Assembly: GCA_964491155.1 (NCBI GenBank)
Contig: CAZBFG010000001.1
Span: forward strand, 4,604 to 68,603
Reading direction: 5' to 3'
Origin: an uncultured Bdellovibrionales bacterium
GTDB lineage: Bacteria > Patescibacteriota > Minisyncoccia > Moranbacterales > UBA1568
DNA: 64,000 bases
This document shows, piece by piece, positions 10,289 to 47,859 of the stretch; positions within the stretch are counted from its first letter, which is position 1, and each line of letters opens with the position of its first letter. The position numbers and the translations under genes are program-made. The notes below the pieces were generated by a model. That model was not told where the DNA came from. It saw only the letters and a program-made list of their open reading frames with translations, and did no database searches.

Positions 10289-10741
10289 TCAGCAGCCCGA
10301 GGACTGCAGGTTCTTGACGTGCATCTCACCGTCGACTCCTTGGAGTCCGATGCGCACGGCGCCGTCCGTCATGTTCGGCGGGAAAACCCATTCCCGCTTG
10401 ACGGATCGGAACTCATCAGACGACCCCTGCTTGAAGTCCGGTGCCCACTTCTGTTTGCCACCGGCCATGATCTCGAAATCGAAATGAGGCCCATGGTAGG
10501 AAGCAGTCCCGCCCTTCACGCCCGTAGCCTTGTACTCGGCCGAGAGCGTGAACTTCTTGCCAGCGCAACTCGCCGGCAAGACATAGATCAGTCGCGGGAA
10601 GTCATCTCCACCGCTCTGACCACGAATGACGTACGTGTCACCGTTCTTAGTGACATCACCACCTTCCATCTTCCACACCACCTGGGCGGTGGCATTGACC
10701 GAAAAAAGAGCGGCCAAAAGCGCTAAAAACTTGGTTTGCAT
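10289..10741 (-). CDS. Small secreted hypothetical protein (high-GC island)
   Basis: Signal peptide MQTKFLALLAALFSVNATAQ; the track start at 10753 is TTG and the ATG at 10741 is preferred. Confidence 0.6.
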   Translation of the reverse strand: MQTKFLALLAALFSVNATAQVVWKMEGGDVTKNGDTYVIRGQSGGDDFPRLIYVLPASCAGKKFTLSAEYKATGVKGGTASYHGPHFDFEIMAGGKQKWAPDFKQGSSDEFRSVKREWVFPPNMTDGAVRIGLQGVDGEMHVKNLQSSGC

Positions 10742-10865
10742 GGTTTGCTCCAATTGAAAAGGACCAGAATTCGTGCGTTCGCATCACGCGAACAAAGAAG
10801 TATAGAATAAAATTCGCTTTCTGTCAATAAAGAGAAACTCGTTTGAGTTTCAGAAATATTTTGGA

Positions 10866-10910
10866 TAAAAAAAGAGGGGTTTCGCAGTACATCGTACTTT
10901 GAAACCCCTA
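10866..10910 (-). terminator. Intrinsic terminator after 10958-11608
   Basis: On the minus strand, aggggtttc...gaaacccct is followed by ctttttttat. Confidence 0.6.
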
Positions 10911-10957
10911 TTGTGTAACCGCGTCATTGACGCGGGACTTGTGGCGGCCTAGCCAGG

Positions 10958-11608
10958 CTACTGGAAGCTGCCGGCGAAGAACTGCTTGGCGGCCTTGGTC
11001 GGCAACACAACCTTGGTAGCCTTGCCGTCGGCACCGCGCTCGACGATGAGCAGTGTGATGGTTTGCCCACGGCTGTTCTTGCCGCGTGACTCACCAAAGG
11101 GGTGGGAACCCCAGGCCCGTGTTCCGTCCTTGAGTTCGATCACAGGGATCGCGCCCAAGAGGTCGTAGTCGCCGGCCACGTCGACCTGATAGGTACCACT
11201 GGCGCCCGTGATGGGTGCGCAGGCAACCCGCGGGTCGTCGAGCTTGAGACTCGGAAGGCTGGCAGTGCCTGGCCAATCACTGCCGCGCTTCAGAATGCAC
11301 TGACGTGCACCTTCGAACGCCGCCGGATTGGTCTTGTAGGACAACACCCAGTCCATGACACCCTTCTTGCCATCCTCGCTTTGCAGCTTGGTAGCGTTGT
11401 AGGTGGCGCCAGGGTCGGTTTTCCACACGGCCGCGATGCCGTGGATGGTCAACTCGACCTTGTCATTGAGAACCGGGCCGATCTGGAGCGTCGTCGCGCC
11501 GGCGCCTTGGGTACCGTTGACCTTGAAGGTCGTCTTGGCCGGTTCGGCCGCGGAAACGCTCAAGGCACATGCGAAAGCCGCGAGCGCGGCGAAGATCTTG
11601 CTGATCAT
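10958..11608 (-). CDS. Secreted hypothetical protein (high-GC island)
   Basis: Signal peptide MISKIFAALAAFACALSVSAAEP; an AGGAG ribosome-binding site. Confidence 0.6.
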   Translation of the reverse strand: MISKIFAALAAFACALSVSAAEPAKTTFKVNGTQGAGATTLQIGPVLNDKVELTIHGIAAVWKTDPGATYNATKLQSEDGKKGVMDWVLSYKTNPAAFEGARQCILKRGSDWPGTASLPSLKLDDPRVACAPITGASGTYQVDVAGDYDLLGAIPVIELKDGTRAWGSHPFGESRGKNSRGQTITLLIVERGADGKATKVVLPTKAAKQFFAGSFQ

Positions 11609-11643
11609 GGTGTGCTCCTAAGTTGCACGGTGGGAAAGTTGAT

Positions 11644-11690
11644 TGCGTCTGTAAAATCAACTCACCCGAGTTGATAGATTCACAGACGCG
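11644..11690 (-). promoter_or_regulatory. Long imperfect hairpin in the 5' UTR of 10958-11608
   Basis: gcgtctgtgaatctatcaactc pairs with gagttgattttacagacgc (8 bp then 6 bp); it lies between the promoter and the ribosome-binding site. Confidence 0.4.
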
Positions 11691-11745
11691 AGGAACTGAG
11701 TTCTCCGATGTTTACCTCTTTGACGAGATACCCACTGGAGGAATC

Positions 11746-11774
11746 AGTATACACCTTTTCTTACTTCTTGTCAA
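11746..11774 (-). promoter_or_regulatory. Sigma70-type promoter, TTGACA-17-TATACT
   Basis: On the minus strand a consensus -35 (ttgaca) is followed by a 17-nt spacer and a -10 (tatact), about 130 nt upstream of the ATG at 11608. Confidence 0.6.
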
Positions 11775-11824
11775 TAGCTAGAAAGAGAATGTTTTAAGGC
11801 TCAAGGGAGCCTAAAAAGATCAAA

Positions 11825-11852
11825 GGCAGGTCGTTCGGATGAACTTCCTGCC
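11825..11852 (-). terminator. Intrinsic terminator after 11995-13617
   Basis: On the minus strand, ggcagg...cctgcc is followed by tttgatcttttt. Confidence 0.5.
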
Positions 11853-11994
11853 CTGATTGCGACGATGTCGCTAACTGCCCTGCTGCGTTTCATTTACCTA
11901 AGCCGATATGTCGCATCCAAATGATTTTCATCATTCGTCTTGGCGCATACCCTTTTTATAGACTTTCGTACAAATTCTACGCAGCTGTGTTCAG

Positions 11995-13617
11995 TCAGTC
12001 GTCAGCGTCAGAGGGCGCGGTCTTCCACTGCTTCTGGGGACTATTCATCCCCTTAGGCAGAATGACCATGCCATCCTTGTCGAGTCGGCCACCGGCCTTT
12101 TCGATCGCGGCCGTGAATTGCGCCTTGCGCGCTTGTTCACGATGCACGTAGACCGTCTTGCGGATGTCCCAGCTCCAGCCGAAACCGAAGAGTGAACCGC
12201 CGTTCAACAGGTCATAGTTGCGACCGAGGCCTATGAAGAGCCGCTCTTCCTTATCGCTCCACTGGAAGCGCCAGTTGGCCGTTTCTGCCAGGCTCGGAGC
12301 CTCTTGGAACCAGCCGAGCGCGAACCAGAGCTTGGTACCGATCTTGTCATCCTCTTCCGAAAGGTCGAGGAGACCGATACGTCCACCCACGTTCACGACA
12401 TGACTGAGCCTGGAGTCCGGGTCGGCCAGTGGTTGACCAAAAACGGAGTGTTCGGCCTCACCTCCCGTCGGCTTGAAGGCCGAAACGAAGAGTTGGTACT
12501 TGAAGAAGGACTTCTCCCCCCTCAACTCGCGTGCGTAGTTGTTGTACGCGAGCGTGATACCACGAAGGTCGAATTGCCGTTGGCTCTTGTAAGCCGCTTG
12601 CTCGCCGTTCTCTTCCAACGTGGCCCACGGCAGCAGCTTGAGACCGAAGTCGTAGCCACCTTCGTAAGCACTGTACTTGTAGGCCGGCCCGTAACCACCG
12701 AGGTGACCACTGAAACCAAAGCCTGTATCAGTCTTGCCGTGCCAGCTGCTGAAAGTGCCGCCGATACCGAACGCGTGTTCGGCACCGGAACCTTCAATGA
12801 AGAGACCGTAGAGCGCTCCAGACACGAACGTCGATTGCGCTGTCCGATCGTACTCCTTGCCGCCCACCAGTTCCCAGTCCCAGCGACGCACTGCCTCTTC
12901 AGGCGGTACTTCTTTGGGTTCGGGTTCTGGTATAACTTCTGGCGTCGGTTCTGGCTCTTTCTGCGGCTGCGGTTCTGGTTCCGGCTGTGGCTCAGGCTGT
13001 GGTTCTGGTTCCGGCTGTGGCTCAGGCTGGGACGTCACCATGAAGGTGATGTTCCCACATGAGAGCATATCGGCCAGCGTCTTGCCGGTCGAGAGCTTCC
13101 ATGTCTCCATCGCTTCGGGTCGCCCACCTTGTTCTGGTGTGCAAACCCTGACGTCACGGAGAAACTTGATCGTACCATCTTTGGAACGGAATGGCATGGC
13201 TTTGAACACCATGTCACTAGATACTAGCTCACGAACTCCACGCTCGAGAGAGACCAGAGCTTTCGCCTCGACTTTCTCTTCTGCCGTCAGATCCGGATTG
13301 GCATCGATTGCCTCCAGCCGAAGCTTGAGAGAGCCATAACGATTCCACGGCGCCCTATTCAAGTTGATGCAGGCTTGGGGCTGCTTCGCTTCGACAGCTG
13401 TACCACGCTCCGGGAACCGGATGATGGCACCAGCCTTGATGACGTTGCAGTCGTCCAGTTGATTGAACAGGCAGAGCACCTGCCAATCATGACCGAACTT
13501 CTTGGCAATCGATCCGAGCGTCTCGCCGGGATTGATTTTGTGAGGCGGCGTTTGATCGCCAGCCCACGCCCCCACCACTCCAAAGAGCAGCAAGAGAACC
13601 ATATACCATTTCTTCAT
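11995..13617 (-). CDS. Secreted LysM-like domain protein with a PEPQ-repeat linker and a Gly/aromatic-rich C-terminal domain
   Basis: Signal peptide MKKWYMVLLLLFGVVGAWAG; a LysM-like segment (INPGETLGSIAKKFGHDWQVL...IKAGAIIRFP); the linker QPEPQPEPEPQPEPQPEPEPQPQKEPEP; a C-terminal ~300 aa rich in G/F/Y/W. Confidence 0.6.
   Translation of the reverse strand: MKKWYMVLLLLFGVVGAWAGDQTPPHKINPGETLGSIAKKFGHDWQVLCLFNQLDDCNVIKAGAIIRFPERGTAVEAKQPQACINLNRAPWNRYGSLKLRLEAIDANPDLTAEEKVEAKALVSLERGVRELVSSDMVFKAMPFRSKDGTIKFLRDVRVCTPEQGGRPEAMETWKLSTGKTLADMLSCGNITFMVTSQPEPQPEPEPQPEPQPEPEPQPQKEPEPTPEVIPEPEPKEVPPEEAVRRWDWELVGGKEYDRTAQSTFVSGALYGLFIEGSGAEHAFGIGGTFSSWHGKTDTGFGFSGHLGGYGPAYKYSAYEGGYDFGLKLLPWATLEENGEQAAYKSQRQFDLRGITLAYNNYARELRGEKSFFKYQLFVSAFKPTGGEAEHSVFGQPLADPDSRLSHVVNVGGRIGLLDLSEEDDKIGTKLWFALGWFQEAPSLAETANWRFQWSDKEERLFIGLGRNYDLLNGGSLFGFGWSWDIRKTVYVHREQARKAQFTAAIEKAGGRLDKDGMVILPKGMNSPQKQWKTAPSDADD
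12936..13034. repeat. Tandem 30-bp DNA repeat encoding the PE/PQ linker
   Basis: ggttctggttccggctgtggctcaggctgt appears in at least two perfect copies plus degenerate copies. Confidence 0.7.
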
Positions 13618-14543
13618 GGCAAACTCCTTGTCTGTAGGTTTCTGGGTGGGTCGCTCGGAAGCAACCCGGCTTGGGTTTCTTCCTTCACGGCGTCACCTTT
13701 CTTCCCGCATCCGTTGTTCGCCACAGATATGTTATGCGGCAACGACAGCACTGCGCCGACAATCATAAACGTCGCGCTGGGCACTGCCGAAGCACTACCG
13801 CATGTGACGAGTCTGTCGAGCTTATTCACGCCCTTTGTCAGGGCGCCAACATGAACGATGTCCGGCTGCGTCGAGAACACTTCCCCATCATCTCCCATCG
13901 GGAGAGGAATGGGGTAGCGTGCTTCCAGCCACACGAAGAACTTGCGTCCTGCGGGGTGGTCGCGCCGGAAATTCGAATACTCAGGAAATGGCGAGGGATG
14001 GGCGGTGAAGAACTGATTACTCAGCTCAAAGGCGCCATTCTCGATATTTACCAAAGCACCCTTGGTCGTCATGACTGTCTTGCCATCATTGAACCGGACG
14101 AGCCAGTAGCCCCGATTGTACTCCGCCACCCTTCCAGGAGGCAAGAGTACAAAAAGCTCTGTTTCGTCAGGATTCATGATGGTGTCAAACACTTCAACTC
14201 TTCCATCGACGTAGTAGGCGGTTCGCCAGACCGAACAGATGACTGGTCGAACTGACTTCCCAACCTTGTACGAGCGACTCGGGTCACGGATCTCACTGCG
14301 CCAGGCCTCAGGGAGAGGCTTGGGCAACTTGATCATGGCGACCGTGTAGCTGAAGGTCTTGGTAACATCACCACGTACTGATACGCAGCGCCACGGCAGT
14401 TGTACACCACCTTGATCGCCTTGCTTCACCTTCGTGGTCTCGATGTTGTAGCCAATATCCTCTCTGACCTCTTCGATCTTCCGATCGATACTGGCGCACC
14501 CCGTGAGGAGGGCCAGAGCGATCATACCAATGATACGCAACAT
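13614..14543 (-). CDS. Lipoprotein of unknown function, overlapping the downstream LysM gene by 4 nt
   Basis: Lipobox MLRIIGMIALALLTGCAS; a GGAG ribosome-binding site ahead of the ATG at 14543; the track start at 14609 is an upstream extension. Confidence 0.6.
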   Translation of the reverse strand: MLRIIGMIALALLTGCASIDRKIEEVREDIGYNIETTKVKQGDQGGVQLPWRCVSVRGDVTKTFSYTVAMIKLPKPLPEAWRSEIRDPSRSYKVGKSVRPVICSVWRTAYYVDGRVEVFDTIMNPDETELFVLLPPGRVAEYNRGYWLVRFNDGKTVMTTKGALVNIENGAFELSNQFFTAHPSPFPEYSNFRRDHPAGRKFFVWLEARYPIPLPMGDDGEVFSTQPDIVHVGALTKGVNKLDRLVTCGSASAVPSATFMIVGAVLSLPHNISVANNGCGKKGDAVKEETQAGLLPSDPPRNLQTRSLP

Positions 14544-15475: not shown

Positions 15476-15508
15476 GCTAAAAACCCCTTAAACAAGGGGT
15501 TTTATGGG
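15476..15508 (-). terminator. Intrinsic (bidirectional-looking) terminator
   Basis: aaaacccctt-aaac-aaggggtttt forms a stem with T-runs on the minus strand. Confidence 0.5.
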
Positions 15509-15715: not shown

Positions 15716-16885
15716 CTAAAAAAGCTTGGTGAGTTTCTCGAGAATATCAAACTGAGCAAAATCACGCACGGTCACAAAAAGCATAAGGAGTAAAAGGAGC
15801 ATAAAGCCCACTTGATGAATCATACCCTCCACTCTGCGACTGACCGGACTACCTTTCAACTTTTCAATGAGAATAAAGAGGATACGTCCACCGTCGAGGG
15901 CCGGAATCGGCAGGATGTTGATGATACCAAGATTGATCGAAAGGAGTGCAGCAAACTGAAGGAGATATGGCAGACCGAGGTCACTCATCTGCTTGGTCAA
16001 GTAGACGATGCCGACCGGACCAGTCACATCAAGTGCCGCTTTCTCCGCCCCAAAGAGTGAAGCAATCATTTTACCAAAAGCTTCGAGGATAGCCATGGTG
16101 ATGTTGTAGGTCGCGATGGCGCCACGGTAGATGGCTTCGTACCATGGATATGAAACCACGGCTGTTTCAGAAAACGAAATGCCGAGAGCGCCTTCACTAG
16201 CTGGATATTCAGTTCGGGGTGTTCCAGAAAGCGAAAACGCCTGTCCAAAACGATCCACATCGATACTGATAGATTTGCCCTTGTTCTCACCGATTATCTG
16301 CGAGACCCGTTCGAGACTGTGTATCTTTTCCCCGTTGATAGAGACGATAGCGTCACCCATTGACAGTCCCATGGCTTCGGCTGGCGTCCCCTTCCCGACG
16401 GACAGCACCTGAATTTCCGCATTTGGATACTGACCACGTTCACTCGGCTCGATAGGCTGCGGCATGCCAAGCATGAGCACGATAGAAATGAGGAACCAGG
16501 CAAACAGAAAGTTCATGACCACCCCTGCAGCCAGCACTTTGACACGTACCCAGGCTGACTTGCTCGCAAAACTGTTGGGATCGCTCGTATCGTGTCCATC
16601 CTCTCCAGCAATTTTGACAAACCCCCCGAGTGGAATCCAATTGAGCGAATAGACCGTTTTCCCGCTTGGCATTTCCTTGTTTCCCCACACTATTCTGTAT
16701 TTCCCCGTATCATCCTTGATCACTCCGAACATCCGTGGTGGAAACCCAAAGCCAAATTCGTCTACTCGAATACCGTTTCGTACAGCTGTCACAAAATGCC
16801 CCAATTCGTGTACAAACACCAGGAGCCCAAGGAGAACAATAAATATGAGAACAGTGAGCATAGTCAGAAAATTCCTAATTCCCAA
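15716..16885 (-). CDS. rseP: RIP site-2 zinc metalloprotease RseP (M50 family) with a PDZ domain
   Basis: HELGHF motif in the first TM helix, a PDZ segment, and a C-terminal LDGG motif; the track start is TTG and an ATG alternative lies at 16861. Confidence 0.8.
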   Translation of the reverse strand: MGIRNFLTMLTVLIFIVLLGLLVFVHELGHFVTAVRNGIRVDEFGFGFPPRMFGVIKDDTGKYRIVWGNKEMPSGKTVYSLNWIPLGGFVKIAGEDGHDTSDPNSFASKSAWVRVKVLAAGVVMNFLFAWFLISIVLMLGMPQPIEPSERGQYPNAEIQVLSVGKGTPAEAMGLSMGDAIVSINGEKIHSLERVSQIIGENKGKSISIDVDRFGQAFSLSGTPRTEYPASEGALGISFSETAVVSYPWYEAIYRGAIATYNITMAILEAFGKMIASLFGAEKAALDVTGPVGIVYLTKQMSDLGLPYLLQFAALLSINLGIINILPIPALDGGRILFILIEKLKGSPVSRRVEGMIHQVGFMLLLLLMLFVTVRDFAQFDILEKLTKLF

Positions 16886-16965
16886 TCTCTAATTTCTAAA
16901 AATGCAGAAATTTTATTGGGATTCTTAGTTAGATATTTGATATTAGAAATTAGATATCCCGTTTC
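16886..16965. repeat. Copy A of the CTAATTTCTAA/TTAGAAATTAG palindromic intergenic repeat
   Basis: Inverted pairs cccaat/attggg and ctaatttctaa/ttagaaattag; it lies between frr and rseP. Confidence 0.6.
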
Positions 16966-17523
16966 TTAAACGGTCAGCACTTCTTCTTCCTTCTTCTTCC
17001 GAATCACTTCCAGTTTCTGATTGTATTCATCAACGACTTTTTGCAACTCTTCCTTTCCAAAAAACTTGTCATCCTCAGAGATATCCCCTGATTTTTCAAA
17101 ATCCTGGATATCTTTCCAGATTTCTTCTCGAACATTGCGTATAGCGATGCGCCCCTCTTCTGCCCGTTGATTGAGTGATTTGACCAAGTTTTTTCGCGTT
17201 TCCTCAGTCAATGCTGGGAGTGTGATACGAAGCGCCACGCCATCATTGCCTGGGTTCAGTCCCAGATCAGACTCCCGGATGGCTGCTTCAATGAGTACCA
17301 GACTGCCCTTGTCCCAGGGAGAAATGAGGATCTGACGAGCCTCGGGAATGCTGATACTGGCTATCTGACGGAGCGGTGTACGTGTACCGTAGTAGTCCAC
17401 CGACAAATTTTCCACCAATCCGGGATGGGCGCGTCCTGTACGAATCTTGGAGGCTTCGTCTGCAAAGTGTCCGACCGCATTCTCGAAATTCTGCTTCTTA
17501 TCATCAATCAGTTCCTTTATCAT
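16966..17523 (-). CDS. frr: Ribosome recycling factor
   Basis: 185 aa; full-length RRF-like sequence (MIKELIDDKKQNFENAVGHF...). Confidence 0.9.
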   Translation of the reverse strand: MIKELIDDKKQNFENAVGHFADEASKIRTGRAHPGLVENLSVDYYGTRTPLRQIASISIPEARQILISPWDKGSLVLIEAAIRESDLGLNPGNDGVALRITLPALTEETRKNLVKSLNQRAEEGRIAIRNVREEIWKDIQDFEKSGDISEDDKFFGKEELQKVVDEYNQKLEVIRKKKEEEVLTV

Positions 17524-17542
17524 AGTCTTGCGTTTCGTTATA

Positions 17543-18739
17543 TTACTTGAAATTTCTCAGTCCAACAAACAAATATTCCGAATCAAAGGGATCATAAGAG
17601 ACAAACGATGCACCCCGATCAACTGTCATCCCCGTCACAAACCAGGTCTGTCCGCTATCGATGGATTTGTAAAAAGCTTTGCCGGCTACAAACACGATCT
17701 CATCGGGATTTTTAGGGTTGACTGCGATAGAGCGAATCGGAAACTTCTTGGCACTCTCGATGATATTAATCTCGGTCCAGTATTTTCCAAAATCCGCACT
17801 CTTGAAAAAACCATTGCTCGTACCGGCGTAGATCACCCCTGAGCGAGTCGGATCCGAAGCGATAGAGATGATACCCGCAGGCATCTTGTTCGTTTGATTT
17901 CGTTCAGAGAGCTTGGCGGATTCCTTTTGCAGCCGCTCGGATTCCTTGGCATTGCCATTGGTCGAGGCGTCGCTTGCTCGCTTCTGGAGTGCTGCTACTT
18001 CTTTCTGCTTCTCTTCTTCCCAATCAAGCCAGGCTACTCCACCATCTCGAGAGTAGTAGAGTTTTTGACCAAAGGTCAGGAGATAGGTAGTAAACTTCTG
18101 AGTAGCATCAAACAAAATATCAGAGACCGTACCTTCAATCTTGTTTCCCACGTTCTTCCACGTCTCACCAGCGTCCGTACTCTTGACCACTGTCCCGGTC
18201 GAAGTGCCCGCAAAAATAACATTGATATCAGTCGGGTGCTGGGAAAGAGCTGTGACATTGGCCTGGACACCCGGCTCGGTATAAACTTCCTTCCATTCCT
18301 CTCCGCCATCATCTGTCCGGAAAATCTTGCCCCACTCGCCAACCACTCCCGAAGCAAACATGCGGTTGTCCGGGTCATTACGATCCAAGATGAAACTATA
18401 GATCTTTTTTGGAGGAAAGGAGATAGGTGTCCACTGCTCACCTGCATCTTCCGTTTTGAAAATACCATTGTCTACTGAACCCACATAGATAGTTCCCTGC
18501 GTATGTGGATGATAGGCGATAGAAAGGATGTCTGCCTTGGTGATAGTGGTTGTTTCATCAATCGTTGACTTGACCTCAAAGGTCTGCCCTCCATCACTGG
18601 TCCGCCACAGACTGCCCTTGGCTGGGGCGCCACTCGTAGTTGTCTCCGGCGAAAGAGATCCAGGAAGCGGGATAGTACACCCTGACAGTATAAAAGTACC
18701 CATCGCCAATACTCCTGACAACAATAATCTCTGTACCAT
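17543..18739 (-). CDS. Lipoprotein with BNR/Asp-box repeats
   Basis: Six S-x-D-x-G-x-T-W-like motifs (SDGGQTF, TEDAGEQWT, TDDGGEEWK, STDAGETWK, SRDGGVAWL, SIDSGQTWF); the signal/lipobox reads LAMGTFILSGC; the start is trimmed to the ATG at 18739. Confidence 0.65.
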   Translation of the reverse strand: MVQRLLLSGVLAMGTFILSGCTIPLPGSLSPETTTSGAPAKGSLWRTSDGGQTFEVKSTIDETTTITKADILSIAYHPHTQGTIYVGSVDNGIFKTEDAGEQWTPISFPPKKIYSFILDRNDPDNRMFASGVVGEWGKIFRTDDGGEEWKEVYTEPGVQANVTALSQHPTDINVIFAGTSTGTVVKSTDAGETWKNVGNKIEGTVSDILFDATQKFTTYLLTFGQKLYYSRDGGVAWLDWEEEKQKEVAALQKRASDASTNGNAKESERLQKESAKLSERNQTNKMPAGIISIASDPTRSGVIYAGTSNGFFKSADFGKYWTEINIIESAKKFPIRSIAVNPKNPDEIVFVAGKAFYKSIDSGQTWFVTGMTVDRGASFVSYDPFDSEYLFVGLRNFK

Positions 18740-18831
18740 ATTTGTATATAATTTCCCTTTCAGTATAGCAGAAAACTGAGCCCGAGAAAAGAAAAAACTC
18801 CTCGAGGGAGTTCTTTCCTTTTGATGAGTTT

Positions 18832-18907
18832 TGGTGGGTACAGCAGGAATCGAACCTGCGACCGTTGGCTTAAAAGGCCACTGCTCTACCGACTGAGCTA
18901 TGTACCC
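18832..18907 (-). tRNA. tRNA-Lys (anticodon TTT)
   Basis: Cloverleaf gggtaca/tgtaccc acceptor stem, D-arm gctcagtcggtagagc, anticodon loop cttttaa, T-arm ggttcgattcc, and CCA encoded. Confidence 0.85.
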
Positions 18908-18955
18908 GCAAATCAAAACAATTGTACCTGGAATGAGGCACTTTGGTCAACCCTC

Positions 18956-20278
18956 CTACTGCTTTGGCGCAATAACATCTTTACCAACAAACGGCCGGAG
19001 CACCTCGGGAATCGTCACCGAACCGTCAGCTTGCTGGTAATTTTCGAGGATCGAGATAAAGATGCGTGGGCTTGGGAGAGCGGTGTTATTGAGCATATAG
19101 ACATGTTTTTTGTCGCCGTTCTCGTCTTTGTACTTCACATTGAGCCGGCGAGCCTGCCAGTCGAGGAAATTCGAGGCTGATCCTGTCTCGCCATAGCGAT
19201 TCATCCCGGGCATCCAAGCCTCAAGATCAAAGGCGCGGTACTTGCCGGCGCTCATGTCACCACTACAGATCTGAATCTTGCGATACGGCAGCCCGAGCTC
19301 TTGGTGCATTTCTTCTGAAACAGCAATCATCTCTTCCTGAAGTTTGTTGGCCAGTTCCATATCAGCCGGACACAGTATGACCTGCTCCACTTTCATAAAC
19401 TCATGCACCCGGTACATACCCTTGGTATCTTTGCCGTAACTTCCGATTTCACTCCGGTAGCACTGACTGAAGCCAGCCATGCGCAGCGGCAGATTCTTTT
19501 CTTCTAAAACCTCATCGCTATAGTACGAAAGCAGTGATGGCTCGGCCGTTCCGACCAAGAATTTTGATTCTTTTGAAATGCTGCCATCTACTTCTTTATC
19601 GGATGTCGCTACCTGATAGATTTCATCAATCTCGCCATTGTATTCGCCACCCTTGAAGTAGCCACTCCCGAAAAGCGGAAAGCTTTTTACCAAGGTTGGC
19701 GGGATCATCGGTGTATACCCTTTGGAAACCAGCTTTTGCAATGCATAGAACATCAACCCCATCACCAGGAGCGTCCCTTCATTTTTCAAATAGTAGCCGC
19801 GGTATCCAGACACTTTGGCTCCGCGCTCCAAATCCAAAATATCGAGCATCTTCCCCAGCTCCATATGTGTCCGTGGTGCAAACTCAAACTGCTTGATATC
19901 TCCATACTTTCCCACCTCAACGTTCTCCGCATCACTTTTCCCACGCGGCGTATCCGGAGAAATAATATTTGGCACTTGTACCATGAGCGCATCAAACTCT
20001 TTCTTCACCACAGCAAAGCGCGGCTCAAGTTCATCAATTTTTACTTTGATCTCCTTGCCTTTGGCGATAATTTCAGCGCGCTCTTCATCTGTTTTTGCCT
20101 GCTGAATAAGATCATTGATATCATTCTTGAGCGACTTTAGTTCTTCCAGTTCCTGAAGCAGCGCAATGCGCTCACCATCTTTGGCGAGTAAAGCATCAAT
20201 ATCAAGCGACAAATTCTTTGCCGTCACTGCTTCTTTGATAGCGGCCGTATTAGTACGAATGTATTGGATATCTAACAT
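18956..20278 (-). CDS. serS: Seryl-tRNA synthetase
   Basis: Begins MLDIQYIRTN, with an N-terminal coiled coil and class II core motifs; the track start at 20308 is a GTG extension. Confidence 0.9.
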   Translation of the reverse strand: MLDIQYIRTNTAAIKEAVTAKNLSLDIDALLAKDGERIALLQELEELKSLKNDINDLIQQAKTDEERAEIIAKGKEIKVKIDELEPRFAVVKKEFDALMVQVPNIISPDTPRGKSDAENVEVGKYGDIKQFEFAPRTHMELGKMLDILDLERGAKVSGYRGYYLKNEGTLLVMGLMFYALQKLVSKGYTPMIPPTLVKSFPLFGSGYFKGGEYNGEIDEIYQVATSDKEVDGSISKESKFLVGTAEPSLLSYYSDEVLEEKNLPLRMAGFSQCYRSEIGSYGKDTKGMYRVHEFMKVEQVILCPADMELANKLQEEMIAVSEEMHQELGLPYRKIQICSGDMSAGKYRAFDLEAWMPGMNRYGETGSASNFLDWQARRLNVKYKDENGDKKHVYMLNNTALPSPRIFISILENYQQADGSVTIPEVLRPFVGKDVIAPKQ

Positions 20279-20337
20279 AGGAACGGCTTCATTAGCTTTT
20301 AGCTTCACTAGCTTGTTAGTCTTCTAATTATTTAGGG

Positions 20338-20411
20338 TGGACGACACTGGATTCGAACCAGTGACCCCAGCAATGTGAATGCTGTGCTCTAACCAACTGA
20401 GCTAGTCGTCC
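20338..20411 (-). tRNA. tRNA-Val (anticodon CAC)
   Basis: ggacgac/gtcgtcc acceptor stem, D-arm gctcagttggttagagc, anticodon loop ttcacat, T-arm ggttcgaatcc; the 3' end reads ACCC, so CCA is not fully encoded. Confidence 0.8.
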
Positions 20412-20419
20412 GGCTGTTC

Positions 20420-21880
20420 TTACTCTTTGTCCTTCATTGGTGGAAAGATGACCGTCTCGCGGACGGAGCGATTCATGAGGATAGCAAACAGACGTTCACT
20501 CATCCCGAATCCACAGGCTGGTGGCATACCATACTCCAGCGCCTGGATAAAGTCTTCGTCGAGCATCATCCCCTCCTTGTCACCGGCATCACGAAGCTTC
20601 ATCTGCTCCTCAAAGCGTGCTCGCTGATCAATCGGATCATTGAGTTCTGCAAATCCGTTCCCGAGCTCACTCTTGGCCGCTATCGGCTGAAAACGAAGCG
20701 TCCGACGAGGATTCTTGGGATCACACTTCGCGAGTGGCGACACTTCGATCGGGTGCCCTACCAAGAAACATGGCTGCAGCAATTTTTGACGAACTGTTTT
20801 CTTGTACAGCGTATCAATCATGCGCCCCTTGCCATAATTCTTTTCGTATTTGATATGAAGCTCATCAGCCTTTTTCTGAAGCTGCTCGATGGTCACTTCG
20901 TGAGACAAATCAATACCCGTTTCTTTCTCAAACTCAGTAAAATAGTCGACACGCGGAAATGACGTATTCCAATCAATACTCACTCCCTCATACTCCGTGG
21001 CCATCGTTTCACCGACCACCGCACGCACGATATCTTTGTACAATCGCTCCACTAGTTCCATCCCCTGCTCCATATTCATGTAAGCAGCATAAAATTCCAT
21101 GTGATCGAACTCCTGCAGATGTTCACGGTCTATTCCCTCGTTACGAAAGACCCGACCGATCTCAAACACGCGCTCATACCCGCCGACGAGCAAACGCTTG
21201 AGCGCCAGTTCGAGCGAGATGCGCAGATAAAAGTCAGCATCCAAAGCATTGTGGTGTGTCACAAACGGTTCCGCTTCGGCGCCACCAGGAATGTGCTCGA
21301 GCACCGGCGTCTGCACTTCCAAAAATTTCTGCTCTGTCAGCACTGTTCGGACAGTCTGCCAAAACGCATTTTTCTTGATAAACAACTGTCGCGTCTCTTC
21401 ATTCATGAGCAAATCGAGATAACGACGACGGAGGAGTTCTTCCTCATCTTTCAAACCATAGAATTCTGTCGGGATTGGTCGGAGTGACTTGCAGAGCATC
21501 TGCCATGAGGCCACTCGTACTGATTTTTCATCTTGTTTGGTCAAAAAAACCGCGCCGGTGATAGCCACAAAGTCACCGAGGTCAACCGTTTCTTTAAAAA
21601 GTTTGAAGTCTGTTTCGCCTAACACTTCGAGAGAAAAAAATCCCTGAATTTTTCCACTCCCATCCTCAAGATGACAAAAGGCAATCTTGCCCATGACACG
21701 CAAGGACTTGACGCGCCCCACTACCGACACCTGAGTATCGGTGCCATTCAGGGTCTCAAAAGCATCCAAAACCTCCACGCTCGTATGGGTACGCACCACA
21801 GTATCCGGATAGGCTGTTCCGGTTGCTTGGCGTATTTTCTCAAGCTTTTCGAGTTTCGTTGTCAGAATATCTTCACGCAT
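20420..21880 (-). CDS. lysS: Lysyl-tRNA synthetase (class II)
   Basis: 486 aa; N-terminal OB anticodon-binding domain plus class II motifs 1-3 (FRNEGID, GGxERxxE-like region). Confidence 0.9.
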   Translation of the reverse strand: MREDILTTKLEKLEKIRQATGTAYPDTVVRTHTSVEVLDAFETLNGTDTQVSVVGRVKSLRVMGKIAFCHLEDGSGKIQGFFSLEVLGETDFKLFKETVDLGDFVAITGAVFLTKQDEKSVRVASWQMLCKSLRPIPTEFYGLKDEEELLRRRYLDLLMNEETRQLFIKKNAFWQTVRTVLTEQKFLEVQTPVLEHIPGGAEAEPFVTHHNALDADFYLRISLELALKRLLVGGYERVFEIGRVFRNEGIDREHLQEFDHMEFYAAYMNMEQGMELVERLYKDIVRAVVGETMATEYEGVSIDWNTSFPRVDYFTEFEKETGIDLSHEVTIEQLQKKADELHIKYEKNYGKGRMIDTLYKKTVRQKLLQPCFLVGHPIEVSPLAKCDPKNPRRTLRFQPIAAKSELGNGFAELNDPIDQRARFEEQMKLRDAGDKEGMMLDEDFIQALEYGMPPACGFGMSERLFAILMNRSVRETVIFPPMKDKE

Positions 21881-22002
21881 ATTTCAAAGTTGTTTCACCG
21901 AGCGTATGGTCACATTGTAGCCTCTCCTAAAGCAAAATGCAAGGCACAAAACGAAAGAAGTTCGACTTCCAACTGGAGGTCGAACTTCTCGAAAGAGTGA
22001 AT

Positions 22003-22458
22003 CTAGTTCACAGAAACGATTTCGTACTTGACGGTCGCAGCAGGAGTCGTGACCTCTACCTTGTCTCCCTTACCTTTACCCAAGAAAGCCTGACCCAGGG
22101 GTGACTCATTGGAGATTTTTCCAGCAGCCGGGTCAACTTCGTTCGAACCAACGATTTCAAAATGAAATTCCTTGCCATGGACTTTGACACCTAGCTTGGA
22201 GCCCATACCGATTGTTGAAGCACCCTTGTGTTTGGCAGCAACCACTGAATCCTTGAGCATGCCCTCGAGCTCAGCAATACGAGACTCATTCTCGTTCTGA
22301 TGGTTCTTGGCCTCGCTGTATTCAGCATTTTCAGACAGGTCACCCTGCTCTTTTGCTTCCTTGATAGCTTCCGCAATCTCCTGACGAATCTTCGTCTTGC
22401 GTTCCTCGAGCTCTACAGTCAGTTTTTTCAACCCTTCCTCAGTAAAAATTTTTGCCAT
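22003..22458 (-). CDS. greA: Transcription elongation factor GreA
   Basis: 151 aa; N-terminal coiled coil with the DLSENAEY acidic tip and a C-terminal FKBP-like domain. Confidence 0.9.
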   Translation of the reverse strand: MAKIFTEEGLKKLTVELEERKTKIRQEIAEAIKEAKEQGDLSENAEYSEAKNHQNENESRIAELEGMLKDSVVAAKHKGASTIGMGSKLGVKVHGKEFHFEIVGSNEVDPAAGKISNESPLGQAFLGKGKGDKVEVTTPAATVKYEIVSVN

Positions 22459-22524
22459 AATTGATGTACAAATGAAAATTCTCTCCCGAGGGAAAGAATT
22501 GGATTTAGATATCAGAGTTTCTCA

Positions 22525-22552
22525 ATACTACCAAAATATGAATAATTGTCAA
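22525..22552 (-). promoter_or_regulatory. Promoter TTGACAAT-N16-TGGTAGTAT upstream of greA
   Basis: The minus strand reads ttgacaattattcatattttggtagtat. Confidence 0.5.
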
Positions 22553-22589
22553 TGCCAAACATTTTTGGCTCTAAAAAAGCAAAAAATGA

Positions 22590-25843: not shown

Positions 25844-25949
25844 ATGCCACGCAGGTATACCTGTGAATTTCTAATTACCAATTTCTAATTTCCAAAAAAT
25901 ACCTTTCACGCAAGCATTCATTAGAAATTAGATATTAGAAATTAAATAT
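25844..25949. repeat. Copy B of the CTAATTTCTAA/TTAGAAATTAG palindromic intergenic repeat
   Basis: caggtatacctg palindrome, ctaatttc...gaaattag inverted pair, and a tandem attagaaatta; it lies between mreB and mreC. Confidence 0.6.
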
Positions 25950-38651: not shown

Positions 38652-38728
38652 ATATCTTGGTTAAAAACACAGATATCAAAGCACAAAAGCCAAACAAAGC
38701 ACAGTTTCCAAAAAAATAATCAAAAAAA

Positions 38729-39895
38729 CTAGGGTGGGGTTTGTGGAATTGTGTTTTGTGTTTTGTTTGGACTTTGGACTCTGTGTTTTGTGTTTTCCAA
38801 ATGCTCATTTAGAGCATTGGTGACATAATTCCGTATTTTAGTCTTAAACTGCTCTTTGTCAAAATGAAGGGCCTGATTCCTGATAAAGACCGGGTCGTAG
38901 CGACTCTCATCAAATCCCTGCACGGCCCCCACTATTGATGCAGTAGTCTGTTCATTGAAAAACACTCCTGTCTCCCCTTCTTTCATATGTTCTACGATAT
39001 CGCCTCCCCGATAGGCAATCACCGGGCGACCCGAGGCCATCGCTTCCATGGCCACAATGCCGAAATCTTCTTCTTGGGGGAAAACAAAGGCCCGACACTC
39101 CGCATAGTACTGAGGCAACGCTTCATCCGAAACCCGTCCCAAAAATTCAATCGTCGGTCCGGCCAATTTCTTCAACCGATCCATTTCCGGACCACGACCG
39201 ATAATCTTCAGTGGAAGCTTGAGAGTATTAAAGGCCTCGATGGCGATATCAAAACGCTTGTAGGCAATCAGTCGGCCTACCATAAGAAAATAAGGCTTGC
39301 GATCTTCCGGCTTGGCAATATAGAACTGATCGACGTTGACCGGCGGGTGGATGACGGTCGCTTCTTTATGATAGTACTTGGCGATGCGCTTCCCCACAAA
39401 CTGCGAATTCGCGAGATAGCGGTCGACCCGATCGGCACTGGCCTTGTCCCACAGACGGATAGGACTCATGAAAAAAGGCACCAGTCGCTTCACGAGACTC
39501 GGGAAACCAAAATCCTGCGTGTATTTCTGGCAGTCATCCCACGCATAGCGCATCGGGGTGTGCATGTAGCAGATGTGGAGCGTCTCCGGTCTGGTGATAA
39601 TGCCTTTGGCATAGCTCGACGAATCAGACAACACGATGTCGTACTTACTAAAATCAAATTCTTCGATAGCGAGCGGCATCAGTGGCGGGAAAAAGCGATG
39701 ATGTTTGCGCGAAAAAGGCATTTTTTGTAGAAACGAGGTATAGATACGTTTCTCTGAAAACTGCCCCCGCATAGCCTGATCGTCGTGAATCAAAGTATAA
39801 ATCGGGGCATAGGGAAAAACCTCGGTAAAGGCCTCGAGTACCCGCTCGGCTCCACCATACTGCACCAAATAGTCATGCACCAGCGCTATTTTCAT
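38729..39895 (-). CDS. GT4-family glycosyltransferase
   Basis: Begins MKIALVHDYLVQYGGAERVLE; GT1 C-terminal EDFGIVAMEAMASGRPVIA. Confidence 0.8.
   Translation of the reverse strand: MKIALVHDYLVQYGGAERVLEAFTEVFPYAPIYTLIHDDQAMRGQFSEKRIYTSFLQKMPFSRKHHRFFPPLMPLAIEEFDFSKYDIVLSDSSSYAKGIITRPETLHICYMHTPMRYAWDDCQKYTQDFGFPSLVKRLVPFFMSPIRLWDKASADRVDRYLANSQFVGKRIAKYYHKEATVIHPPVNVDQFYIAKPEDRKPYFLMVGRLIAYKRFDIAIEAFNTLKLPLKIIGRGPEMDRLKKLAGPTIEFLGRVSDEALPQYYAECRAFVFPQEEDFGIVAMEAMASGRPVIAYRGGDIVEHMKEGETGVFFNEQTTASIVGAVQGFDESRYDPVFIRNQALHFDKEQFKTKIRNYVTNALNEHLENTKHRVQSPNKTQNTIPQTPP
38744..38798. repeat. GT-rich direct repeat (tgtgttttgtgttttg, two copies) overlapping the 3' end of the glycosyltransferase
   Basis: Two copies flank ggactttggactc; they encode the low-complexity tail PNKTQNTIPQTPP. 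Confidence 0.5.
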
Positions 39896-46813: not shown

Positions 46814-46922
46814 ACACTCTAAATGTCAAAGCTCAAATTACAAATATCAAATCAATTTTCAATGTCTCAATTTTTAAATTTTTTCATTCGGATTTCATTT
46901 GTCATTTGGTATTGGGATTTTG

Positions 46923-47825: not shown

Positions 47826-47859
47826 ACTGTACAGTCAACAATCAGCAATTAACAATCTA

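What the first reader, a model, noticed from the sequence alone, without database searches (positions are those of the whole stretch)
16886..16965. CTAATTTCTAA/TTAGAAATTAG palindromic repeat family inside housekeeping operons (frr-rseP and mreB-mreC)
Two intergenic spacers contain the same AT-rich inverted-repeat core. The first is 16886-16965: tcctaattcccaatctctaatttctaaaaa...attgggattcttagttagatatttgatattagaaattagata. The second is 25844-25949: ttctaattaccaatttctaatttccaaaaaa...attagaaattagatattagaaattaaata. Both lie between co-directional genes that are expected to be co-transcribed. They are therefore REP/BIME-like candidates, acting as mRNA-stability or decay-punctuation elements, internal attenuators or protein-binding sites. 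Their presence between mreB and mreC could set the differential stoichiometry of MreB versus MreCD.
Basis: seen in the sequence. Interest (0 to 1): 0.55.

Follow-up and report, generated by a model that had tools for sequence, protein, structure and literature searches.

The report
Heptamer-array hairpin inserts between genes
The two spacers each hold one copy of an AT-rich hairpin built from facing rows of 7-base CTAAT units; the same kind of element is scattered between genes in many candidate-phyla-radiation-type bacteria and also sits inside a 23S rRNA gene, so it is more likely a dispensable inserted element than a conserved operon control.

Summary
Both spacers (frr→rseP and mreB→mreC, genes on the − strand) carry the shared motif: 8 hits against 1.05 expected, 7 of them in these two spacers. 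The "palindrome" is two facing arrays of about four tandem heptamers (CTAATnn / nnATTAG) around a unique centre.

The source is a Candidatus Moranbacteria (Patescibacteria) metagenome contig. In 1.13 Mb of Moranbacteria DNA, period-7 arrays run at 21.6 per 100 kb of intergenic DNA against 0.5 in coding DNA, and no other period is enriched. A relative with 97% identical MreC lacks the mreB–mreC element cleanly. Other relatives have plain spacers or arrays with other units at the same two junctions.

At least 120 CTAAT-type copies occur in public metagenomes, in contigs of 26–63% GC. 118 of 120 are intergenic. Their ends are defined (aAATTT|CTAAT) and they have no target-site duplication. Four copies sit at helix tips of one 23S rRNA gene, as intervening sequences do. 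One relative has a 23S_rRNA_IVP gene inside such an element at frr–rseP.

Best reading: a dispersed hairpin insert resembling both cyanobacterial STRR repeats and rRNA intervening sequences. Cleavage by RNase III is inferred, not shown. A role in MreB/MreC stoichiometry is unsupported.

The parts
16915..16958 (-). El1 5' arm on the transcript: heptamer array GATATCTAA TTTCTAA TATCAAA TATCTAA CTAAGAA TCCCAAT, starting 7 nt after the frr stop codon (16966-16968)
   Evidence: Sequence read directly; TRF period 7 at 16929-16957; lag-7 segment 16932-16954
16900..16914 (-). El1 central unique segment (AAAATTTCTGCATTT)
   Evidence: unpaired or locally paired in the predicted fold
16868..16899 (-). 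El1 3' arm: TTAGAAA TTAGAGA TTGGGAA TTAGGAA TTTT. It ends 6 nt before the rseP ATG (16861-16859) and contains the only AGGA upstream of that ATG
   Evidence: TRF period 7 at 16870-16899; paired with the 5' arm in the MFE structure
25919..25946 (-). El2 5' arm: TTTAATTTCTAA TATCTAA TTTCTAA TG, starting 3 nt after the mreB stop codon (25950-25952)
   Evidence: TRF period 7/14 at 25920-25950; lag-7 segment 25920-25944
25896..25918 (-). El2 centre (AATGCTTGCGTGAAAGGTATTTT), itself a short stem-loop capping the long stem
   Evidence: MFE and centroid structures
25866..25895 (-). El2 3' arm: TGGAAAT TAGAAAT TGGTAAT TAGAAAT TC
25869..25944 (.). Segment present in the window but absent from the close relative L005 (CAZPXK010000012.1; 97% MreC identity, about 90-92% DNA identity in the flanks). 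The junction shares only 1-3 nt (T / ATT)
   Evidence: blastn breakpoints; upstream sequences; three-way alignment with L005 and L029
25852..25863 (.). Perfect 12-nt palindrome CAGGTATACCTG between El2 and the mreC ATG. It is not part of the insert: L005 keeps it and L029 has CAGGTACTCCTG
   Evidence: The terminator scan flags it only on the antisense (+) strand
46814..46922 (-). Related, decayed element in the spacer between secF and the next ORF: CAAATGA-type units facing nnATTTG units (CnAAT core)
   Evidence: TRF period 7 at 46852-46874. The fold is not better than shuffles (z = −0.3), so membership is weak
47826..47859 (-). One-arm heptamer array (TAGATTG TTAATTG CTGATTG TTGACTG) that fills the secD→secF spacer
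   Evidence: TRF period 7 at 47831-47857; Pfam SecD/SecF
38660..38805 (-). Facing heptamer arrays with a different unit (AAAACAC… / TGTGCTT…). The 5' arm lies in the 3' tail of a GT4 glycosyltransferase ORF
   Evidence: fold −33.8 kcal/mol, z = −2.7; the Pfam domain ends at residue 345 of 404

Best explanation
Each spacer contains one copy of a discrete AT-rich hairpin element of about 80-90 nt. Its two arms are facing arrays of about four heptamers with a CTAAT/ATTAG core, its ends follow the consensus aAATTT|CTAAT, and its centre is unique.

The element belongs to a large dispersed family found in Patescibacteria-type genomes. It is an insert, or at least a rapidly gained and lost sequence, not a conserved part of the frr-rseP or mre operons.

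The same kind of element sits at the tips of 23S rRNA helices, where such inserts act as intervening sequences. It can also carry a 23S_rRNA_IVP gene.

Shown: the anatomy, the intergenic bias, the specificity of period 7, the presence/absence between close relatives, the defined ends, the lack of target-site duplication, and the rRNA copies.

Inferred: once transcribed within the operon mRNA, the arms pair into a double-stranded stem of about 30 bp. RNase III would be expected to cut this stem, which would separate the upstream and downstream cistrons. In El1 the stem would also hide the AGGA in front of rseP. I judge the net effect on the operons to be small or neutral. How copies arise is unknown (non-duplicative insertion, or templated copying at hairpin tips).
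For: Anatomy and significance.

Organism: MreC homologues and 67 related genome loci are Candidatus Moranbacteria.

Dispensable and fast-changing:
- L005 (97% MreC identity) lacks window 25869-25944 cleanly.
- L085 (94% MreC identity) has an unrelated 67-nt TTTTGGn array.
- Most of the 66 mreB-mreC and 28 frr-rseP junctions examined are short and plain. Others carry facing arrays with other units.
- L029 (54% MreC identity) has nearly the same element as the window. The 5' arm is 89% identical and the 3' arm 32/34 as read from the alignment, against 61-78% in the flanking coding DNA.

Period-7 census in 1.13 Mb: 22 arrays in 102 kb of intergenic DNA against 5 in 1,027 kb of coding DNA. Lags 4-12 other than 7 give 0-2 intergenic arrays, and shuffled intergenic DNA gives 0.3. 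TRF agrees.

Family in metagenomes:
- At least 120 stretches match CTAATTTCTAATN{20,50}TTAGAAATT, and most of the 80 inspected by eye carry further in-register units.
- Contig GC ranges from 0.26 to 0.63. One 61% GC contig is Patescibacteria by its PilB homologues.
- 118 of 120 are intergenic.
- Both ends follow the consensus aAATTT|CTAAT.
- A sub-family shares the inner motif AATCCCAAT with El1; 24 of 120 interiors contain it.

Link to rRNA:
- In L162, Rfam LSU_rRNA_bacteria (2158 bits) spans 5,107 nt against a 2,925-position model. A 144-nt and a 151-nt insert replace terminal loops.
- Four homologous copies are present; two of them differ only by a 15-nt indel.
- One copy folds at −50.3 kcal/mol, z = −9.3.
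- In L066 a PF05635 23S_rRNA_IVP ORF lies inside facing arrays exactly at frr-rseP.
- A published survey of CPR rRNA genes reports many short, ORF-less, non-intron inserts at the known RNase III IVS sites, and IVP ORFs in inserts (PMC11270868).

An RNase III signature (ERLEFLGD) is encoded in two related Moranbacteria loci.
Against: - No target-site duplication at 118 elements, and no transposase or other mobilising gene was identified. Mobility is therefore inferred from distribution only.
- Units differ between relatives at the same junction. This fits local turnover as well as repeated insertion.
- No sense-versus-antisense folding asymmetry: 42 against 31 of 74 co-directional copies, p = 0.17. 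The 29 long orthologous spacers show no consistent asymmetry either. There is thus no direct sign that the RNA form is under selection.
- RNase III cleavage is untested.
- Only one of the 120 metagenome loci is an rRNA gene, and its organism could not be placed.
- El1 folds only marginally better than shuffles (z = −2.3).
- The family was retrieved with a pattern derived from the window's own elements, so membership by sequence is partly circular. The extra units, the end consensus and the shared inner motifs are the independent part of the evidence.
Confidence: 0.6

Rival explanations
1. The arrays are simple-sequence repeats generated on the spot (STRR / long-SSR type). Polymerase slippage on a 7-nt unit builds an array, and hairpin-templated (quasi-palindrome) repair copies it onto the other arm. 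Nothing moves. The same junctions are hit repeatedly because they tolerate extra DNA.
For: - Heptamers are reported as the commonest long simple repeat in bacteria, attributed to slippage (Mrazek 2007 as summarised in PMC4679880; PMC4692102).
- Units differ between relatives at the same junction, and one-arm arrays exist (L006, L018, L034, L085; window 47826-47859).
- Two L162 copies differ by a 15-nt (two-unit) indel.
- No target-site duplication.
- Folding is symmetric between the two strands.
- Xanthomonas GGGAATC repeats also sit between the same genes in two species, with extensive length and sequence variation.
Against: - The CTAAT core and the aAATTT ends are the same in contigs of 26-63% GC. 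Local slippage should amplify local sequence.
- Sub-families share their non-repetitive centres although the flanks are unrelated.
- Four homologous copies, including their short flanking stems, sit at different helices of one rRNA gene.
- The window and L029 share an element more similar than the neighbouring coding DNA, while closer relatives lack it.
Confidence: 0.25
2. The hairpins are selected cis-acting RNA signals of the operons. They would act as processing or stability punctuation, or as translational-coupling devices that tune RseP relative to RRF and MreC/D relative to MreB. The 5' arm starts just after the upstream stop codon and the 3' arm covers the ribosome-binding region.
For: - The elements fill the space from stop codon to start codon.
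- The AGGA before rseP is paired in the predicted fold.
- The frr-rseP and mreB-mreC junctions carry period-7 arrays in 7/28 and 7/66 relatives, against 11/767 other co-directional junctions (Fisher p = 7e-7 and 2e-4).
- Cyanobacterial 7-bp STRR hairpins in the hupS-hupL spacer have been proposed to raise transcript stability or couple translation (PMC2670836).
- TAACTGA heptamers in Beggiatoaceae sit just upstream of start codons that lack a canonical ribosome-binding site (PMC4679880).
Against: - El2 is absent from the 97% relative with an otherwise identical operon and is replaced by an unrelated spacer in the 94% relative. Most relatives have spacers of 4-40 nt.
- The sense strand does not fold better than the antisense strand.
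- The family shows no preference for co-directional spacers (80% against a 77% baseline). It also occurs in convergent and divergent spacers and in rRNA.
- The hot-spot statistic is not corrected for shared ancestry, and these two junctions were chosen after the fact.
Confidence: 0.12
3. They are REP/BIME-type extragenic palindromes spread by a RAYT (IS200/IS605-like TnpA), or classical MITEs moved by a DDE transposase.
For: Dispersed, intergenic, hairpin-forming, multi-copy, with defined ends. Lack of target-site duplication is compatible with HUH-type enzymes (the compatibility rests on my own knowledge of IS200/IS605).
Against: - The sequence is AT-rich and built from tandem units, unlike REPs.
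- The arm sequence varies between families, which a sequence-specific enzyme should not tolerate.
- No target-site duplication, which argues against DDE-type MITEs.
- No RAYT or transposase was looked for systematically, and none was noticed next to the copies.
Confidence: 0.04
4. They are intrinsic terminators or attenuators inside the operons.
For: They form stem-loops between genes. El1 is followed by AAUUUUCU.
Against: Recognisable terminators in this window are GC-rich stems followed by T-runs, for example at 15484-15498 and 27160-27187. The scan reports none on the sense strand in either spacer. The stems here are A-U rich, and El2 has no U-tract.
Confidence: 0.03

Closest known systems
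Cyanobacterial STRR (short tandemly repeated repetitive) heptamers, including the STRR hairpins in the hupS-hupL spacer and the STRRs inside the RNase P RNA gene
   Same: 7-nt tandem units. They are intergenic and often arranged so that they can form a hairpin between co-transcribed genes. They are also found inside a structural RNA gene. Function is unknown, with transcript stability or translational coupling proposed (PMC2670836; title of Vioque 1997 as cited).
   Different: A different phylum and different unit sequences (the STRR1-3 sequences are from my own knowledge). Here the facing-array layout with defined aAATTT ends is the rule, and 9-nt spacing also occurs.
23S rRNA intervening sequences (IVS) cleaved by RNase III, and the short ORF-less inserts reported in CPR rRNA genes (PMC11270868)
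   Same: Long extra stem-loops at helix tips, a sporadic distribution, and occasional carriage of a 23S_rRNA_IVP gene. L162 has four CTAAT-array copies in exactly this position. L066 has the IVP ORF inside an array pair.
   Different: The two window copies lie in mRNA spacers, not in rRNA. The cited paper never uses the word 'repeat' (0 occurrences), so the link is new here and rests on one rRNA locus.
Genome-wide heptamer repeat families: GGGAATC in Xanthomonas, GGGGA(C/T)T in Nostoc (PMC4692102), TAACTGA in Beggiatoaceae, Cyanobacteria and Bacteroidetes (PMC4679880)
   Same: A heptamer with 4-5 fixed and 2-3 variable positions, mostly about four units, strongly intergenic, often next to start codons. 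They sit at the same junction in related species with variable length and sequence, sometimes as inverted pairs, and no spreading mechanism is known.
   Different: Those families are mostly single direct arrays (only 1 inverted set among about 170 in the BOGUAY genome). They are G-rich or have a different sequence. They were not reported inside rRNA or with defined element ends.
MITEs and REP/BIME elements
   Same: Small, non-coding, dispersed, intergenic, with inverted ends and hairpin potential. They are known to affect mRNA processing (own knowledge).
   Different: No target-site duplication. The arms are tandem arrays. The elements are AT-rich, and no partner transposase or RAYT was identified.

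Membership tests
STRR / long simple-sequence heptamer repeats | Tandem repeats of a 7-nt unit | tested here: met
   TRF period 7 in all four arms. Lag 7 is the only enriched lag.
STRR / long simple-sequence heptamer repeats | Strong intergenic bias, with the same unit at many loci | tested here: met
   21.6 arrays per 100 kb intergenic against 0.5 per 100 kb coding. At least 120 CTAAT-type loci, 118 of 120 intergenic.
STRR / long simple-sequence heptamer repeats | The cyanobacterial STRR unit sequences and host lineage | tested here: not met
   The unit is CTAATnn and the host is Moranbacteria/Patescibacteria. The STRR1-3 sequences are recalled from my own knowledge.
rRNA intervening sequence (IVS) | Extra stem-loop that replaces the terminal loop of an rRNA helix | tested here: not met
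   The two window copies are in mRNA spacers. The feature is met only by sister copies in L162.
rRNA intervening sequence (IVS) | Excised or cut by RNase III | not testable with these tools
   Only stem length (about 32 bp in El2) and the presence of an RNase III signature in related genomes could be checked.
MITE | Terminal inverted repeats, small size, no ORF, several copies with unrelated flanks | tested here: met
MITE | Target-site duplication flanking the element | tested here: not met
   Direct repeats of 2-5 nt at the flanks of 118 elements occur at chance level. The El2 junction shares only 1-3 nt.
MITE | A related autonomous element or transposase with the same ends | not tested
   No systematic search was possible; only windows of about 10-20 kb were held.
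REP/BIME | Short GC-rich imperfect palindrome with a conserved head sequence | tested here: not met
   AT-rich tandem-unit arms. No Rfam match at E<=1.
REP/BIME | Cognate RAYT gene in the genome | not testable with these tools
   Only 64 kb of the genome is available.
Intrinsic terminator | GC-rich stem followed by a U-tract on the sense strand | tested here: not met
   The scan finds none on the − strand in either spacer. True terminators in the window look different.
TAACTGA-type start-codon-proximal heptamers (MacGregor 2015) | Direct repeats in forward orientation within a few nt of the start codon, replacing a canonical ribosome-binding site | tested here: inconclusive
   The El1 3' arm ends 6 nt from the ATG and the El2 3' arm 22 nt from it. 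Here the arrays come as inverted pairs, and the unit differs.

The most novel reading that the evidence does not exclude
Patescibacteria carry a phylum-wide class of hairpin elements that insert without duplicating their target. The elements are built from CTAAT heptad (or nonad) arrays, and the same class colonises both the tips of rRNA helices (as intervening sequences) and the spacers between protein genes. If so, the short unexplained rRNA inserts of CPR bacteria and these operon hairpins are one and the same element. RNase III processing of them would then be a general, evolutionarily labile way in which CPR operon transcripts get cut into pieces.
Probability: 0.3. Interest if true: 0.7.

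Novelty: new variant of a known kind. Interest (0 to 1): 0.55.

Why it matters
Heptamer repeat families have been known for decades in cyanobacteria, Xanthomonas and giant sulfur bacteria, but their origin and function remain unexplained. CPR rRNA genes, for their part, are known to be full of short unexplained inserts. This case ties the two together in tiny CPR genomes, where every extra base is conspicuous. It also offers natural with/without pairs (the window against L005) in essential operons. Those pairs make both the RNase III question and the expression question directly testable with metatranscriptomes or simple in vitro assays. On the practical side, such hairpins break assemblies, mislead ORF callers (over-extended starts, read-through tails) and should be masked in CPR annotation.

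Tried and rejected
- Selection on the RNA. I compared sense and antisense folding energies in 29 long orthologous spacers and in 74 co-directional metagenome copies. There was no significant asymmetry, so I make no claim of selection at the RNA level.
- Classical transposition. I tested 2-5 nt direct repeats at four offsets around 118 elements and found only chance levels.
- Phage carriage. The same pattern in viral contigs gave 8 hits. All were chance matches in coding DNA without arrays, which makes them a useful negative control.
- Known RNA families. Rfam at gathering threshold on the whole window found only two tRNAs. Rfam at E<=1 on 16800-26050 found nothing in the spacers.
- Preference for operon-internal spacers. 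Rejected: 80% co-directional against a 77% baseline.
- Further 23S_rRNA_IVP genes next to arrays. tblastn over all Moranbacteria loci found only the L066 copy.
- rRNA context in other metagenome loci. blastn with the L162 23S gene matched other loci only through the element itself.
- Taxonomy of L162. The neighbouring AAA+ ATPase has homologues in many phyla and is uninformative.
- The secF-downstream arrays (46814-46922) do not fold better than shuffles, so I list them only as a weak relative.
- A covariance-model membership test was not run. The family was fished with a pattern taken from the window elements, so the test would be circular.
- Vioque 1997 could not be read. Literal searches for the repeat strings in the paper library found nothing relevant.
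Full report

Yes. CTAATTTCTAA with up to one mismatch occurs 8 times in the 64-kb window, against 1.05 expected from dinucleotide-preserving shuffles. The largest shuffle gave 5, and none of 100 reached 8. The quoted sequences are there.

- Ribosome recycling factor, 16966-17523.
- An M50/PDZ site-2 protease. Its true start is the ATG at 16861-16859, so the first spacer is 16862-16965 rather than 16886-16965.
- MreB (25950-27098), MreC (25019-25843), a 180-aa ORF with no Pfam match in the mreD position, and PBP2.

Independent assemblies from another sequencing run (L002 and L004) are 100% identical over the two spacers, so these are not assembly artefacts.

**2. Anatomy**

The "palindrome" is two facing arrays of tandem heptamers. 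TRF reports period 7 with about 4 copies in each of the four arms. Read on the transcribed strand:
- El1: TAA-GAAACGG-[GATATCTAA TTTCTAA TATCAAA TATCTAA CTAAGAA TCCCAAT]-AAAATTTCTGCATTT-[TTAGAAA TTAGAGA TTGGGAA TTAGGAA TTTT]-CTGACT-ATG
- El2: TAA-ATA-[TTTAATTTCTAA TATCTAA TTTCTAA TG]-AATGCTTGCGTGAAAGGTATTTT-[TGGAAAT TAGAAAT TGGTAAT TAGAAAT TC]-ACAGGTATACCTGCGTGGCAT-ATG

El2 folds into a stem of about 32 bp (−31.9 kcal/mol, z = −5.7). El1 folds only marginally better than shuffles (z = −2.3).

Neither spacer contains a sigma-70-like promoter or a terminator-like site on the sense strand. Genuine promoters (TTGACA-17-TAnnnT) and GC-rich terminators elsewhere in the window are easy to recognise. 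No Rfam family matches the spacers, even at E<=1.

**3. Organism and orthologous junctions**

The window comes from ENA metagenome contig k141_762857 (117 kb). MreC homologues and 67 related loci from GTDB species representatives are Candidatus Moranbacteria, in the Patescibacteria / CPR.

I extracted the mreB-mreC spacer from 66 relatives and the frr-rseP spacer from 28. Three results matter.

(a) El2 is dispensable.
- L005 (97% MreC identity, about 90-92% DNA identity in the flanks) reads TAA-ATATTCACAGGTATACCTGCGTGGCCT-ATG. That is the window spacer minus 25869-25944, with only 1-3 nt shared at the junction.
- L085 (94% MreC identity) has a third, unrelated 67-nt spacer made of TTTTGGn units.

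(b) Most relatives have plain spacers of 4-40 nt. A sizeable minority carry facing heptamer arrays with other units at the very same junctions. Examples are TTAG/CTAA in L006, ATGAAGT/TTCATGA in L017, GAATCAn in L022, CAAATGA/TCATTTG in L030, TAACAAC/GTTGTTA in L069 and ACTTACG/CGTAAGT in L032. Lag 7 is the best self-match lag in 22 of 29 spacers of 60-200 nt.

(c) The distribution does not follow relatedness. L029 (54% MreC identity) has almost the same element as the window at mreB-mreC. The 5' arm is 89% identical and the 3' arm 32/34 by reading, against 61-78% in the adjoining coding DNA. L027 has a CTAAT-type element at frr-rseP with the same GAAAACGGAATATCTAAT lead-in.

With a uniform detector, arrays occur in 7/28 frr-rseP and 7/66 mreB-mreC junctions, against 11/767 other co-directional junctions (Fisher p = 7e-7 and 2e-4). 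Two caveats apply: relatives are not independent, and these junctions were picked after the fact.

**4. Is period 7 special, and is there a positional bias?**

I analysed 1.13 Mb (the window plus 67 Moranbacteria loci), using crude longest-ORF gene calls and a lag-k self-match score.
- Lag 7 gives 22 arrays in 102 kb of intergenic DNA (21.6 per 100 kb) and 5 arrays in 1,027 kb of coding DNA (0.5 per 100 kb).
- Every other lag from 4 to 12 gives 0-2 intergenic arrays.
- Shuffled intergenic DNA gives 0.3.
- TRF independently ranks period 7 first: 20 intergenic against 11 coding.

The window itself has further arrays: secD→secF (47826-47859, one arm), secF→next ORF (46814-46922, CAAATGA/ATTTG units, no significant fold) and 38660-38805 (AAACACA/TGTGCTT units, z = −2.7).

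The phenomenon is not confined to CPR. Two Desulfobacterales MAG loci fetched as distant MreC hits carry GAAACTG/CAGTTTC facing arrays.

**5. The CTAAT family outside this genome**

I scanned the JGI metagenome collection with CTAATTTCTAATN{20,50}TTAGAAATT, a pattern that El1, El2 and the L029 copy all satisfy.

A pattern of 21 specified AT-rich bases will also match by chance, so the count alone proves little. The nature of the hits does.
- Most of the first 80 hits, inspected by eye, carry additional in-register CTAAT/ATTAG units on both sides. In those 80 loci, 52 CTAAT clusters and 62 ATTAG clusters have three or more cores.
- All 8 hits in the viral collection are bare coincidences inside coding DNA.

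Properties of the family:
- Contig GC ranges from 0.26 to 0.63. In the 61% GC contig L123 the element sits between ftsH and the next gene, and a neighbouring PilB ATPase has Patescibacteria homologues.
- 118 of 120 copies are intergenic, where only about 18% of the DNA is non-coding (p about 1e-85).
- There is no preference for co-directional spacers: 74/93 against a 77% baseline, p = 0.54.
- Core-to-core spacing is 7 nt (201 cases) or 9 nt (79 cases), and rarely anything else.
- Both ends have the same sharp consensus aAATTT|CTAAT, beyond which composition drops to background.
- There is no target-site duplication.
- Sub-families share non-repetitive inner motifs despite unrelated flanks. For example, AATCCCAAT is present in El1 and in 24 of 120 interiors.

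**6. The rRNA link**

One metagenome locus, L162, has eight CTAAT/ATTAG clusters. Rfam shows that seven of them, forming four elements, lie inside a 23S rRNA gene of 5,107 nt; the eighth (3757-3775) lies outside the gene. The model has 2,925 positions and the match scores 2,158 bits.

The cmscan alignment shows a 144-nt insert replacing a 9-nt terminal loop near model position 165. A 151-nt insert replaces a 6-nt loop near model position 285. The four elements are homologous (83% mean column identity). Three of them also share short flanking stems, and two differ only by a 15-nt, two-unit indel. One folds at −50.3 kcal/mol, z = −9.3, on the rRNA strand.

This is the position and shape of classical 23S intervening sequences. 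A 2024 survey of CPR rRNA genes reports many short (<200 bp), ORF-less, non-intron inserts at the known RNase III IVS sites, and 23S_rRNA_IVP ORFs within inserts. It does not mention repeats (PMC11270868).

In the Moranbacteria relative L066, the frr-rseP spacer consists of facing arrays (AAATTTC… / …GAAATTT) enclosing a 116-aa ORF that matches Pfam 23S_rRNA_IVP (E = 3e-17).

I could not place L162 taxonomically.

**7. What it most likely is and does**

Shown: El1 and El2 are two copies of a discrete, dispersed, strongly intergenic, AT-rich hairpin element with heptamer-array arms. It is gained and lost on the time scale that separates 94-100% identical proteins. Elements of the same build occur as rRNA helix-tip inserts.

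Inferred:
- In the operon transcripts the arms pair into long A-U/G-U-rich duplexes, the substrate type of RNase III. An RNase III signature is encoded in related Moranbacteria loci.
- Cleavage would separate the two cistrons.
- In El1, the AGGA in front of rseP is buried in the stem.

Because close relatives do without the elements, and because the sense strand folds no better than the antisense strand, I regard them as tolerated inserts. Any regulatory effect is a by-product, not a designed stoichiometry control.

How copies arise is open. Copying of whole elements is favoured by four observations:
- The ends are defined.
- The core does not depend on host GC.
- Sub-families share centres.
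- Four copies sit in one rRNA gene.

Three observations keep an in-situ slippage-plus-templating origin alive as the main rival:
- There is no target-site duplication.
- Units turn over at a fixed junction.
- One-arm arrays exist.

**8. Comparison with what is known**

The closest known things are:
- The genome-wide heptamer families GGGAATC (Xanthomonas), GGGGAYT (Nostoc) and TAACTGA (Beggiatoaceae and others). These have 4-5 fixed positions, about four units, intergenic and start-codon-proximal positions, and no known spreading mechanism.
- RNase III-processed rRNA intervening sequences.

The element works like these, but it is not a member by sequence or lineage. It fails the MITE test on target-site duplication, the REP test on composition and form, and the terminator test.

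I found no description of heptamer-array hairpins in CPR, nor of the identity between CPR rRNA inserts and intergenic hairpins. The relevant paper has 0 occurrences of "repeat". Literal searches for the repeat strings find nothing relevant, and keyword searches find nothing on Patescibacteria. Absence from this paper library is not proof of novelty.

**9. Verdict**

I class the feature as a new variant of a known kind (STRR-like and IVS-like dispersed hairpin repeats, here in Patescibacteria). Interest is moderate. The most testable and most novel element is the proposed identity between operon-spacer hairpins and rRNA intervening sequences.

Noticed in passing
L005 8636-8821 (empty site at window 27101-27103, lysS-mreB spacer): The close relative has its own 186-nt insert with 20-bp perfect inverted ends, AGTAACTATCTCAAATCTCA / TGAGATTTGAGATAGTTACT. 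The ends are built from nnnCTCA heptamers. The insert is absent from the window.
   Followed up: partly
window 38660-38805: Facing heptamer arrays (AAAACAC… / TGTGCTT…) fold at −33.8 kcal/mol (z = −2.7). The 5' arm lies inside the 3' tail of a GT4 glycosyltransferase ORF (38729-39943), beyond its Pfam domain. The array appears to be read through as a C-terminal extension.
   Followed up: partly
window 46814-46922 and 47826-47859: The secD→secF spacer is a one-arm nnnATTG ×4 array. The spacer between secF and the next ORF has CAAATGA units facing nnATTTG units, but its fold is no better than shuffles.
   Followed up: partly
window 25852-25863: A perfect 12-nt palindrome, CAGGTATACCTG, lies just upstream of the mreC ATG. 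It is kept in L005 (which lacks the hairpin insert) and appears as CAGGTACTCCTG in the distant L029. It could be a conserved small hairpin or a binding site.
   Followed up: no
window 52231-52271, 20286-20324, 31212-31238: Short tandem arrays with other periods lie immediately upstream of start codons: period 8 (TAGCTTCT ×5.4), period 16 and period 9.
   Followed up: no
window 8001-14000: GC is 0.52-0.57 here against about 0.47 elsewhere. A 30-nt tandem repeat sits inside an ORF at 12946-13029. This may be a foreign segment.
   Followed up: no
L066 19967-20455: The frr-rseP spacer of this relative is 483 nt. Facing AAATTTC / GAAATTT arrays enclose a 116-aa ORF (20031-20381) that matches Pfam 23S_rRNA_IVP.
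   Followed up: yes
L060 16693-16810 and 18076-18240: A rarA/mgsA gene is flanked upstream by about 12 TTCATGT units. Downstream it is flanked by about 17 CATAGAA-type units plus a short facing arm. These are the longest arrays seen.
   Followed up: partly
L162 5948-11054: The 23S rRNA gene is 5.1 kb long, about 2.2 kb more than the model. Four CTAAT-array inserts account for about 0.6 kb of the excess. The rest includes ORFs (for example 6558-7250 and 7860-8414) that may be intron or homing-endonuclease genes.
   Followed up: partly
L078 10516-10633; L079 18454-18478: Desulfobacterales MAGs also have heptamer arrays between a stop codon and the next start. L078 has both facing arms (GAAACTG / CAGTTTC) around a centre of about 68 nt; in L079 only the CAGTTTC arm scored, with the same flanking sequence. 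The architecture is therefore not restricted to CPR.
   Followed up: no
L005, L008, L010-L013 and other loci: Many GTDB records titled 'uncultured Bdellovibrionales bacterium' encode MreB and MreC proteins up to 97-98% identical to this Moranbacteria window. The titles appear to be mislabelled.
   Followed up: no
window 18832-18907: tRNA-Lys lies inside the mechanically called ORF 17543-18916. The BNR-repeat protein must start further downstream; the public gene call is 398 aa.
   Followed up: partly
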